Source of the DNA: Sphyrna mokarran
Taxonomy: Eukaryota
Assembly: GCA_024679065.1 (NCBI GenBank)
Contig: JAGIQG010000012.1
Location: 55,180,001 to 55,244,000 of the forward strand
Reading direction: 5' to 3'
Length of the DNA: 64,000 bases
Below the pieces are notes generated by a model. The model was not told the DNA's origin. It made no database searches and saw only the letters and a program-made list of their open reading frames with translations. Both the position numbers and the translations under genes were made by a program. Below, piece after piece: positions 1,791-41,445 of this stretch. The first letter of the stretch is position 1, and each line of letters opens with the position of its first letter.

Positions 1791-2796
1791 TTTATCCAGT
1801 CTTCCACCTATTTGTTGTTGTCAATTTTTGTAGATTAGCAGCTGCTTGGTTGCTCTGCTTAGGAAATGATCAGGTTGATAAAACTAGGAGCTGAAAGCAT
1901 GGAGATGGAGAAATTAGTTTGTGTTGTACTACTAGCAGGTTGTGTTGATTCCTGGGGGGCAGGCAGTACTGTGGTCCACAACCTGTACTGCCCTTGCATC
2001 ATTCTTCAATGATAATGAATTTCCTCCCTTTAGGAGGAACAAAGGACAATATGTTCCTCTTAAAAATAACAGTGAGGTTAATGGTGTTTGCAATTTATTA
2101 TTTATCTGTCAATGGTACTGCAATTTTAGCTGAGGATGGATGCAATGGTTAAACCCAAATATCTGAATAGTTGTTGTATGATTTGTGGTGCTAAATCATT
2201 AATTTATGACTACTTTTATAACAAATAAATCCAGAAAATCTTTATTTGTAGAATTAAATGGATAGTATCTCTGCCTCAAAGTGCCACCTCAGGACTTGAT
2301 AGCTAAAAAAAGCTGCATTCATAAACAAATGCAAAACAAAACAAAAAATTTTTCTAATGGTCATATATGGCAGGCAGTAAATATGGGAGAGATTCCTGGT
2401 CAGCCACTTGATGGAAAAAAAGTTGAAGCCTCCACCATCACTATCCATAACTCCAGACTATAACATGCTTGTAAAATGTGCATGTCACTCCAGTGACTCC
2501 CTGACTGATCTGTAACACCAGATGTTTTAAGAATCTTTCTTAGCATTGCACCTTTTCATTTCTCCCATTTTTCTCAATCCTTTGCTCACGCATTTTCTTT
2601 TTTTATATTATTCCTTCGTAGTTATTATTCTTAGAGTCTTCTTTTCACATTGAAGGTTATTTTTTTGTTACACACTCTCTTAAATGGCTTACTCCTAATG
2701 CAATGATGTACAGATGCCAGCGCTGGACTGGGGTAAACACAGTAAGAAGTCCAACAACATCAGGTTTAAATCCAACCCATTTATTTGATAGTAAAC

Positions 2797-2832
2797 TCAC
2801 AAGCTTTCGATCCTATGGTCTTCATCAGGTGA
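2797..2832 (-). ncRNA. Minimal type I hammerhead ribozyme motif
   Basis: Minus strand reads TCAC CTGATGA A GACC ATAG GATC GAAA GC TT GTGA: core CUGAUGA/GAAA, stem I TCAC/GTGA, stem II with one mismatch. Confidence 0.7.
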
Positions 2833-2875
2833 ATGAGGTGTTCTGGTCTCCAACCTCGAGATCAGAACACCTCAT

Positions 2876-2911
2876 TCACCTGACGAAGAGCATACGGTCG
2901 AAAGCTTGTGA
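2876..2911 (+). ncRNA. Minimal type I hammerhead ribozyme motif
   Basis: TCAC CTGACGA A GAGC ATAC GGTC GAAA GC TT GTGA: core intact, palindromic AAGCTT at stem III, stem II with one mismatch. Confidence 0.7.
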
Positions 2912-4154
2912 GTCTACTATCAAATAAATCGGTTGGATTTAAACCTGGTGTTGTCAGACTTCTTACTGTGTTTACTCCTAATGCAATACATCGATCACAG
3001 CAATAGAAGAAGTAGGTGATGGCAAGATTGCTACCAACAAAATTGTAATTGCCCACAAGAGGTATCTAAGGTTGACCATGGGCTGGAGAACCCCATGTTG
3101 CTTCTTTTAGGAAGGCCCACCACAACCTGTTCCATTTAGGCACTTCATAAGCCAAGATTGGTTTGTGCTTCTCGTTCTACCACAATGCTCAGGAAAAAAA
3201 AAAATTCCCTTTGCTTGGCAGTTCAGAAATCAATAATTTACCAAGTCAGCAAACATAGATTTTCTGTATACTGCACTGAAATATCACTATATTGTGTAGA
3301 TACTACAGAAAGTATTTTTCTGTGTTATATATCTCAAATGCTTAAAAAAGATAAAATTCATGCAAAACTGATTTTGTCATATGACAATGCATGTACAAAT
3401 GGACTCTGAACATAGTTTGACATAAATAAACAGCCTAAGAGGAGTTTTGTTTAAAATCAATTGCAAAAAGTTTTGCTGCATTTATAAGCATTTTATTTTA
3501 AATGTGGAGGCTGAATGTACAGGTAGTATTTTAAAAGCATTCCGTAATCTACCTTTCAGTTTCGTGAAGCACATCCTGAGGCATAAAAGTGAACAGATAT
3601 GTTGTAATTGCTGTGGTCTGTGATCATTAAACTTTGCAATTTGTTACTGACAATGGAGCTGTCTGGAGTGGAGGGAGAAGCTTTTGCCTGGGGGAAAAAA
3701 CTGCACAAAATCTGTGACTAACCTCAGTCAGCTTTATTTATAAAATTATTTGTTTTGGTAGCATCAACATTTGTTACTTGCACTGGTTATCATTACGAGA
3801 TTCATAGTTTTCAGCTCACTTGTAAACTTTCAGCATTAAAAACTAAGTGTAAATCTAGCTTTGCATTTTACCCTTCTGTTTTAAAAAGATCCATGTCAAT
3901 TTTTTTTAAATGCAATTTGTAATGTACAATAACATCTAATATTGAAAAAGGGAAGGGTGAAAAAGGTTAAGAAATCAATAGGGTTTAAGCCTTTTTTTCA
4001 AGCTGGCAGGAAGCATGCTATTCATCACAAATCATTCACTTCAAAATTAGCTAAGATGGAAAATGAACTGAAATAGAAAACATTACAACATCATAAAAAT
4101 GCTTTAAAAATCCATCAGCATCATTATCATTTTAAAAATGTAGAAGAATATTGT

Positions 4155-9774: not shown

Positions 9775-9900
9775 CTTGCCTGACGAAGGCTATAGAGTCG
9801 AAAGCTCGCAAATTTACTATCAAATAAATTGGTTGGATTTAAAATTGGTGTTGTAAAACTTTACTGAGTTTACCCCAGTCCAATGCTGGCATCTCTACAT
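9775..9900 (+). mobile_element. Penelope-derived repeat (single arm), same family as 2703-2977
   Basis: Aligns with the arm at 2876-2977; 8-bp direct repeat tgtgaaaa at 9767-9774 and 9901-9908. Confidence 0.85.
9776..9811 (+). ncRNA. Minimal type I hammerhead ribozyme, core intact
   Basis: TTGC CTGACGA A GGCT ATAG AGTC GAAA GC TC GCAA: stem I TTGC/GCAA, stem II fully paired (one G-U), UC at the cleavage position. Confidence 0.75.
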
Positions 9901-14325: not shown

Positions 14326-14447
14326 TGATGTGGAAATTTGGCAATGGATTGGGGTGGGCACAGTAAGAAGTCTCACAATATTAGGTTAAAGACTATCTGG
14401 TTTATTTGGAATCATGTGCTTTTAGAGCTCTACTCCTTCATCAGGCG
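14326..14447 (-). mobile_element. Penelope-derived repeat with degenerate hammerhead
   Basis: cacagtaagaagtctcacaa...ccttcatcagg; minus strand CTGATGA aggagtagagctct AAAA (GAAA mutated). Confidence 0.75.
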
Positions 14448-17328: not shown

Positions 17329-17492
17329 NNNNNNNNNNNNNNNNNNNNNNNNNNNNNNNNNNNNNNNNNNNNNNNNNNNNNNNNNNNNNNNNNNNNNNNN
17401 NNNNNNNNNNNNNNNNNNNNNNNNNNNNNNNNNNNNNNNNNNNNNNNNNNNNNNNNNNNNNNNNNNNNNNNNNNNNNNNNNNNNNNNNNNNN
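17329..17492. other. Assembly gap (164 N)
   Basis: Run of N; ORFs spanning it are artefacts. Confidence 1.
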
Positions 17493-40904: not shown

Positions 40905-41445
40905 GAATTACTACATTGCAGGAAGAGACCACTTGGCCCACTGAATCTGCACAGACTATGATCCCATGCAGGCTCTATCCCGGTAGCACCATGTATTTAC
41001 TCTACTGATCTCCCTGACACTAAAAGGCAAAACAGCGTGGCCAATCAACCTAATCTGCACTCCATTGGACAGTAGGGAGAAACTGGAAACCTGGAGGAAA
41101 ACTGAGCAGACACAGGATGAATATGCAAACTCCGCACATGATGTGGAGATGCTGACGTTGGACTGAGGTAAACACAGTAAGAAGTCTCATAACATCAAAT
41201 TAAAGTCCAACAGGTTTATTTGGTAACACAAGCCACTAGCTTTTGGAGCACTGTTCCTTCATCAGGAGTTGAAGGGGCAACACTCTGAAAGCTAGTGACT
41301 TGTGTTACCAAATAAACCTGTTGGACTTTAACCTGGTGTTGTGAGACTTCTTACTATATAAACTTCATACAGACAGCCACTCAAGGCTGGAATTGAATCT
41401 AGGTCCATGGCACTATGATTCAGCAGTACTAACTACTGTGCCATC
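40905..41445 (-). mobile_element. HE1-type V-SINE interrupted by a palindromic PLE
   Basis: SINE body on both sides of 41138-41355; aaactccgcaca / aaacttcataca is a degenerate target duplication. Confidence 0.8.
41138..41355. mobile_element. Palindromic Penelope-derived element with degenerate hammerheads
   Basis: agtaagaagtctcataacatc..aacaggtttatttggtaacacaag / cttgtgttaccaaataaacctgtt..gtgagacttcttact inverted arms. Confidence 0.85.

What the first reader, a model, noticed from the sequence alone, without database searches (positions are those of the whole stretch)
2689..2987. Palindromic mini-element with a hammerhead ribozyme on each strand
Seen: two ~120-bp near-perfect inverted arms around a 7-nt loop, flanked by a 16-bp direct repeat (ttactcctaatgcaat), so it appears to have inserted as one unit. 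Each arm carries CUGAYGA-stemII-GAAA-GC-UU closed by TCAC/GTGA, and the two copies reconstruct a perfect GACC/GGTC stem II. Known: Penelope-like elements carry minimal type I hammerheads with a palindromic stem III that can work as dimers, and often insert with inverted termini. Inference: in either transcription direction the ribozyme lies in the second arm, after its own antisense, so read-through RNA would form a long hairpin that sequesters it (possible ADAR/Dicer substrate). This may be a self-masking, non-coding, ribozyme-bearing mobile unit.
Basis: partly seen in the sequence, partly recalled or inferred. Interest (0 to 1): 0.72.

Follow-up and report, generated by a model that had tools for sequence, protein, structure and literature searches.

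The report
Short head-to-head Penelope retrotransposon insertion
This hairpin is two short, ribozyme-bearing end pieces of an abundant Penelope-type jumping gene joined head to head at one insertion site, an already described layout that is likely rebuilt at each insertion rather than moving as a unit, so it is mostly ordinary.

Summary
The palindrome, the 16-bp direct repeat and a minimal hammerhead on each strand are real. It is not a separate mobile unit. Both arms are the 3' end (pseudo-LTR) of a Penelope-like element (PLE) whose 893-aa RT + GIY-YIG parent lies in this genome. Inverted copy + one-sided tail + TSD is the published PLE insertion layout. The ribozyme covaries across copies, but each arm here has a stem II mismatch, and the hairpin would bury it (about 55 kcal/mol). 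One pattern of interest: 44 of 101 position-ordered young arms end 130-157 nt from the terminus, just upstream of the ribozyme, not at its cut site; copies holding the ORF start rarely do (1 of 21). Likely both target nicks prime on a short RNA and run off its 5' end. The scan noted this layout and this idea before on other DNA.

The parts
2689..2704 (+). Left target-site duplication (16 bp; last 1-2 nt also match the element terminus)
   Evidence: Exact repeat of 2972-2987; TSD-like repeat of 7 nt or more in 38 of 50 sister pairs against 2.3% for mismatched flanks
2704..2738 (-). PLE 'tail': last about 35 nt of the element, ending just before the ORF start codon of a following unit; 2704-2729 has no partner in the right arm
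   Evidence: In full-length L099 this sequence runs directly into the ATG of the 893-aa ORF; 20 of 20 young pairs have the tail on exactly one arm
2704..2854 (-). Left arm: inverted 5'-truncated PLE end, element positions -1 to -151; 9 of 147 positions differ from the subfamily majority
2797..2832 (-). Minimal type I hammerhead of the left arm (core starts 2828; stem II GACC/GATC with one mismatch; predicted cut between 2801 and 2800)
   Evidence: family covariation
2855..2857 (.). Head-to-head junction, 1-3 nt filler, private to this copy
2856..2978 (+). Right arm: direct 5'-truncated PLE end without tail, positions -149 to about -34/-27; 5 of 121 positions differ from the majority
2876..2911 (+). 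Minimal type I hammerhead of the right arm: stem I TCAC 2876-79, core 2880-86, extra A 2887, stem II 2888-99 (GAGC/GGTC, one mismatch), GAAA 2900-03, palindromic AAGCTT 2902-07, predicted cut 2907/2908, GTGA 2908-11
   Evidence: sequence
2972..2987 (+). Right target-site duplication; first 4-7 nt also match the element (microhomology at the priming point)

Best explanation
It is one TSD-bounded insertion made of two 5'-truncated ends of an endonuclease-positive (Neptune/Nematis-type) Penelope-like retroelement joined head to head, likely produced when both nicked target strands primed reverse transcription on a short element RNA and the two products were end-joined. SHOWN: identity with the PLE end; parent ORF; TSD; tail on one arm only; private junctions; arms of a pair end at about the same element position; 5' ends pile up at -130 to -157. 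FROM LITERATURE: PLE protein cuts and extends both target strands and starts at two internal sites that bound the tail (PMC11167929). INFERRED: one nick primes at -1 (tail arm), the other at about -35 (tailless arm); both enzymes run off a common RNA 5' end near -150, probably a pLTR transcription start; host end-joining trims a few bases and adds filler. The ribozyme is inherited cargo of the pLTR; the hairpin that would mask it in read-through RNA is a by-product, and this copy (about 5% from the majority, stem II damaged on both arms) is probably dead.
For: Longer sister copies run from this sequence into GIY-YIG and RT coding sequence in the direction of the right arm. Full-length L099: 893 aa, RVT_1 E 1.4e-6, GIY-YIG E 4.4e-4, both just under Pfam cut-offs, CX4CX2C linker; nearest named proteins are shark proteins at 79-86% identity. 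57 of 87 tail-picked loci have an adjacent inverted arm; 50 canonical, partner ending at median -37; 49 distinct junctions. Arm ends correlate (Spearman 0.50, p 2e-4; 29 of 50 within 20 nt against 11.9 by permutation, maximum 22 in 5000). Arms share subfamily variants (0.197 against 0.454 differences per diagnostic site between loci). Young sister subfamily, position-ordered sample: 44 of 94 arms that reach -130 end by -157, a 13-fold higher rate than -158 to -500; 20 of 20 pairs have one tail and one tailless arm; 15 short pairs have 15 junctions, median offset -1 nt with no side bias (Wilcoxon p 0.75). Only 1 of 21 ORF-start copies ends in that band (Fisher p 1.7e-4), which argues against a polymerase roadblock in the sequence. 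Short arms carry no private variants.
Against: No RNA 5'-end data: the only runs found are contigs of relatives and cannot show starts. The -130 to -157 band was chosen after seeing the data, and the sharp result is from a sister subfamily; in the window's own subfamily the excess is 4-fold. My prediction that ORF-bearing copies would begin near -150 failed (1 of 21), so the short RNA cannot simply be the ordinary mRNA. L360 has both arms sharing a private rearrangement, which looks like self-copying. L048, L052 and L189 have discordant arms (7/19, 8/20, 7/13 diagnostic sites), so one RNA is not always the template. Tail-picked samples are the best-scoring 30 of 40 scored per search, not random.
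Confidence: 0.8

Rival explanations
1. Same PLE identity, but the second arm is made by fold-back self-priming of a cDNA (or of an antisense template, as proposed in PMC3846280), with the tail left on one side by endonuclease resolution.
For: Arms mostly share variants and length. Several junctions use microhomology. One 9-nt microhomology junction recurs in 7 of 30 loci of subfamily C (query-selected). L360.
Against: Fold-back makes the copied arm shorter than the first; in young short pairs the offset has no side (median -1) and several loops are 0-1 nt. In long pairs either arm can be far longer (12 tailless-longer, 9 tail-longer of 50). Discordant arms in L048, L052, L189 need two templates.
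Confidence: 0.15
2. The pile-up at -130 to -157 reflects an RT stall or an RNA processing site at the front of the folded ribozyme rather than a transcription start.
For: The band lies 5-30 nt upstream of hammerhead stem I; ends are spread over about 28 nt.
Against: The same sequence upstream of ORF-start copies is read through in 20 of 21 cases. No spike at the predicted cut site (-101): 1 end at -102, 2 at -97, 2 at -96 of 101.
Confidence: 0.2
3. One reading: a discrete non-coding palindromic element that transposes as a unit and masks its own ribozyme.
For: A short palindrome class is very common (9 short head-to-head pairs in 600 kb of fixed-step sample; 15 of 20 young pairs). Masking is predicted.
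Against: Junctions private in 49 of 50 and 15 of 15 pairs; none of the other 21 best full-length matches aligned has this copy's junction. The one recurrent junction has 28 exact matches genome-wide and its carriers hold both alleles of subfamily variants. Arm lengths run from 82 to over 1,500 nt. RT starts inside the RNA at -1/-35, so a palindromic transcript would present only one sense arm.
Confidence: 0.04

Closest known systems
EN+ Penelope-like element insertion units: pLTR, adjacent inverted 5'-truncated copy, one-sided 30-40-bp tail (PMC8557442 Fig. 2 legend and text; Pen2a_Av in PMC3846280; passages read)
   Same: Inverted 5'-truncated copy, tail on one side, TSD, hammerhead in the pLTR, RT + C-terminal GIY-YIG parent with CX2-5CxxC linker and CCHH-type cysteines
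   Different: Here both copies are cut down to about 150 nt so no ORF is left; tail ends exactly at the ORF start codon; very high copy number of short pairs
Minimal hammerheads (min-HHR) of metazoan PLEs (PMC4209133; parts 1-2 of 4 read)
   Same: Conserved core, extra base between positions 9 and 10.1, G10.1-C11.1, palindromic positions 15.2-16.2, dual motifs on opposite strands 100-700 bp apart already noted
   Different: Stem II is 4 bp, not 7-8; CUU triplet; no Rfam model detects it; activity untested
Poseidon of Anolis carolinensis, PAc (PMC11167929; abstract and main text read)
   Same: Two internal RT start sites bounding the tail; both target strands cut and extended; protein-assisted hammerhead not needed for insertion
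   Different: Penelope/Poseidon clade without the linker finger; its tail and hammerhead overlap the ORF, here both lie upstream of the ATG
Non-LTR retrozymes (bioRxiv 10.64898/2026.07.22.740005, part 1 of 5 and passages read; PMC7229834 search listing only)
   Same: Short, non-coding, type I hammerhead, PLE-derived
   Different: Retrozymes are head-to-tail tandem units bounded by cleavage sites; this is head-to-head and its ends do not match the cut site
L1 twin priming (recalled, not retrieved)
   Same: Second target nick primes an inverted cDNA on the same RNA; junction microhomology
   Different: In L1 the second primer starts upstream of the first cDNA so arms do not overlap; here both start near the 3' end, giving a palindrome

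Membership tests
EN+ Penelope-like element | Single ORF with RT and C-terminal GIY-YIG endonuclease linked to this end sequence | tested here: met
   L099 893 aa, RVT_1 and GIY-YIG (both slightly under cut-off); same-subfamily copies L032, L057 run into the ORF
EN+ Penelope-like element | Pseudo-LTR: the same end sequence upstream and downstream of the ORF | tested here: met
   L099, L089, L091, L096; 29 of 30 ORF-start copies have it upstream
EN+ Penelope-like element | Inverted 5'-truncated copy with 30-40-bp tail at one end and TSD | tested here: met
Neptune/Nematis clades | CX2-5CxxC linker between RT and EN | tested here: met
   CX4CX2C upstream of the GIY-YIG motif in translations; definition from PMC8557442
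Neptune clade (as against Nematis) | RT phylogeny with reference elements | not tested
   No labelled reference sequences were available from the tools
Minimal type I hammerhead | Core CUGANGA / GAAA / UH with covarying stems I and II | tested here: met
   40 copies selected on the core only: 87% of cells paired, 21 double changes against 6.7 in shuffles (0 of 500), slid controls 24-39%; relatedness inflates this
Minimal type I hammerhead | Palindromic stem III allowing a dimer | tested here: met
   AAGCUU; G31 and C32 at least 90% conserved although not selected
Minimal type I hammerhead | Self-cleavage | not testable with these tools
   No assay; no spike of copy ends at the predicted cut
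Rfam hammerhead families | Covariance-model match | tested here: not met
   No hit at E up to 10 in 2000-3800
Non-LTR retrozyme | Head-to-tail tandem units delimited by the ribozyme cut | tested here: not met
   Head-to-head arms; ends at -130 to -157, cut at -97/-101
MITE-like / unit-transposing palindrome | Fixed centre and fixed ends shared among copies, fixed TSD length | tested here: not met
   49 junctions in 50 pairs; TSD-like repeats 3-15 nt; one end varies -19 to -50

The most novel reading that the evidence does not exclude
Tens of thousands of these mini-palindromes are run-off products: two reverse transcriptases primed from the two target nicks (at -1 and -35) copy a short pLTR-initiated RNA to its capped 5' end about 50 nt upstream of the ribozyme cut, and are joined head to head. 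The genome then holds a fossil map of the element's transcription start and shows that Penelope-like elements integrate by symmetric twin priming on mostly uncleaved RNA, from an RNA pool distinct from the one that yields full-length copies.
Probability: 0.5. Interest if true: 0.5.

Novelty: new member of a known kind. Interest (0 to 1): 0.27.

Why it matters
As a locus it is one of roughly 10^5 remnants of this clan (34 loci in 600 kb) and matters little. As a class, short head-to-head copies bear on an open question named in PMC8557442: how PLEs form their tandem/inverted structures and what the hammerhead does. The symmetric stop at -130 to -157, absent from ORF-start copies and from the cut site, gives two cheap tests (5'-end mapping; barcoded two-template in vitro reaction). 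A young sister subfamily with 4,447 exact 34-mer matches and near-intact ORFs offers a Neptune-type system for this. About 4 x 10^4 short palindromes (9 in 600 kb, wide error) would be a large source of potential double-stranded RNA in introns, untested here.

Tried and rejected
Rfam search: no hammerhead, miRNA hits are generic hairpin matches below gathering score. Single-arm folds do not favour the hammerhead (z 0.48, -0.83). Pfam on fragments was weak (1 of 4 proteins, GIY-YIG E 0.003). One own-genome DNA search returned nothing although the query came from the genome (tool skips common words). Idea that the tailless arm is systematically longer (a leading and a trailing RT), suggested by the older subfamily, was rejected in young pairs (median -1, p 0.75). 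Idea that all ORF mRNAs start at -150 was rejected (1 of 21). Idea of a spike of ends at the ribozyme cut: not seen; 7 of 30 ORF-start copies begin between -38 and -105, compatible with cleavage but too spread to count. Idea of splicing at the AG near -150: rejected, upstream sequences of single short copies are unrelated flanks. Idea that the recurrent -82/-94 junction is a transposing clone: rejected. RNA runs: three contig sets of other organisms or metatranscriptomes cover the family but cannot show start, strand or level. No ORF of note within 16 kb, host-gene context not established. Junction calls over-extended across stem II and were redone. Literature searches for a paper describing the 5'-end pile-up or twin priming in PLEs found none in the held library; subscription journals, Repbase/Dfam entries and all supplements were not seen.

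Full report
1. Observation. The arms are at 2730-2850 and 2858-2978 with 110 of 121 positions complementary; the RNA fold is -193.7 kcal/mol, z -24.8. The 16-bp direct repeat is exact. A hammerhead-like motif lies at 2880 (+) and 2828 (-). Rfam finds no hammerhead at E up to 10.

2. It is a high-copy repeat. The whole element gave 4,166 first-look candidates in the 2.77-Gb genome, 40 scored. In 60 fixed-step 10-kb stretches a 65-nt core hit 48 times in 34 loci, 9 of them short head-to-head pairs: about 1.6 x 10^5 loci and 4 x 10^4 short pairs for the whole clan, with wide error. The window itself holds related pieces at 9779, 14345, 41138 and 57315.

3. The parent. Copies picked by the tail alone run, in the sense of the right arm, into a 3' UTR, a GIY-YIG domain and RT. 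A sister-subfamily copy, L099, has an 893-aa frame with RVT_1 (E 1.4e-6) and GIY-YIG (E 4.4e-4), both a little under Pfam's cut-offs, a CX4CX2C linker (Neptune/Nematis mark per PMC8557442), and this same end sequence on both sides; upstream, the tail runs straight into the ATG. Nearest named proteins are from sharks at 79-86% identity. So both arms are pseudo-LTR ends, positions -1 to -151 (left, inverted, with tail) and -149 to about -30 (right).

4. Unit or rebuilt? Of 87 tail-picked loci (three searches, the 30 best of 40 scored each, query loci left out), 57 have an adjacent inverted arm and 50 a canonical one ending at -19 to -50 (median -37). These 50 have 49 distinct junctions; 38 of 50 show a flanking repeat of 7 nt or more against 2.3% for mismatched flanks. 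For a position-ordered sample I took the first 100 of 4,447 exact matches to a 34-mer of a young sister subfamily, fetched all their loci, dropped 6 overlapping duplicates and recovered 101 arms with a pattern shifted by one base. All 20 head-to-head pairs have one tail arm and one tailless arm; the 15 short pairs have 15 junctions. One microhomology junction recurs in subfamily C (7 of 30 loci, favoured by the query), but has only 28 exact matches in the genome and its carriers hold both alleles of subfamily variants. The palindrome does not move as a unit.

5. The ribozyme. In 40 distinct copies chosen on the core only, 87% of stem cells pair, with 21 double changes against 6.7 in shuffles and 24-39% pairing in slid controls; copies are related, so this is support, not a probability. 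The extra A before stem II and the palindromic AAGCUU match the min-HHR of PMC4209133, which reports no monomer cleavage, low dimer cleavage, and dual motifs on opposite strands 100-700 bp apart. This copy is 4-6% from the majority with both stem IIs damaged; selection for masking is not needed to explain it.

6. Mechanism. PMC11167929 shows that a PLE protein cuts and extends both target strands, starts at two internal sites bounding the tail, and does not need hammerhead cleavage. The genomic data fit priming from both nicks: one tail per pair; arm ends correlated (Spearman 0.50; 29 of 50 within 20 nt against 11.9; also at -1045/-1047 and -326/-328); arms sharing subfamily variants (0.197 against 0.454); no side bias in young short pairs. 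Against one simple model: L048, L052, L189 have discordant arms (two templates), and L360 looks self-copied. PMC3846280 proposed self-priming on an antisense template; I rate that lower but not excluded.

7. The one notable pattern. In the young sample 44 of 94 arms that reach -130 end by -157; 7 of 101 end at -93 to -129 and 8 of 50 at -158 to -260: a 13-fold rate excess in a band chosen after looking; the window's subfamily shows 4-fold, and the window's copy (-151/-149) is of this class. There is no spike at the predicted cut (-101). Of 30 copies holding the ORF start, 29 have an upstream pLTR, 21 reach -130 and 1 ends in the band (Fisher p 1.7e-4). This speaks against a roadblock in the sequence, and also against my first idea that the ordinary mRNA starts there. 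The best remaining reading is a separate pool of RNAs starting near -150, for instance from 3' pLTRs firing into flanks; a TSS in the pLTR is known for Penelope and Chlamys-3 (PMC8557442). An initiator-like TGCAGA at -152 is judged against a recalled consensus. RNA data could not test this.

8. Prior knowledge. The layout is described in PMC8557442 (passages) and PMC3846280 (passages). I read parts 1-2 of 4 of PMC4209133 and PMC11167929, and part 1 of 5 plus passages of the 2026 retrozyme preprint, which does not mention sharks or palindromes; no supplements were seen. Searches found no paper in the held library on the 5'-end pile-up or on twin priming in PLEs. The scan's own notes, consulted after my analysis, report the same layout in this genome (29 notes fit the look-up, 8 shown) and the same pile-up and twin-priming idea in other genomes; these are unchecked AI notes and add no independent weight.

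9. Verdict. Real feature, known kind: a short inverted PLE insertion, new member of a known kind. Interest 0.27; the run-off/twin-priming reading has about even odds and would deserve 0.5.

Noticed in passing
window 9779-9900, 14345-14408, 41138-41355, 57315-57363: Four more remnants of the same PLE clan, from other subfamilies; 41138-41355 is a second head-to-head pair
   Followed up: partly
G000, e.g. L099, L083, L095, L251-L280: A very young sister subfamily (99-100% identical copies, 4,447 exact 34-mer matches, frames of 800-900 aa) suggests recent activity
   Followed up: partly
L394-L423 (upstream of ORF start): Copies with near-identical ORF starts carry upstream pLTRs of different subfamilies (80-100% to one reference), suggesting pLTR exchange; upstream lengths mostly -190 to -390
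   Followed up: no
L266 about 1647-1668; L269 about 2097-2115 (oriented coordinates): Junction filler made of repeats of the last 9-13 nt of the arm, as from reiterative copying or templated end-joining
   Followed up: no
L048, L052, L189: The two arms of one insertion carry different stem II variants; L048 and L052 still have near-equal arm lengths
   Followed up: partly
L290 (oriented about 1575-1610): The loop of the small GATTTA hairpin downstream of the ribozyme is inverted within a long arm; the same hairpin gives the recurrent -82/-94 junction
   Followed up: partly
L360 1445-1700: Perfect palindrome whose two arms share a private rearrangement around a re-folded centre
   Followed up: no
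random set, e.g. L120, L146, L154: Older subfamilies show a TATA-like TATATA/TTTATA word about 30 nt upstream of the ribozyme's 5' strand
   Followed up: no
window 17329-17492: One run of 164 N, far from the finding
   Followed up: no
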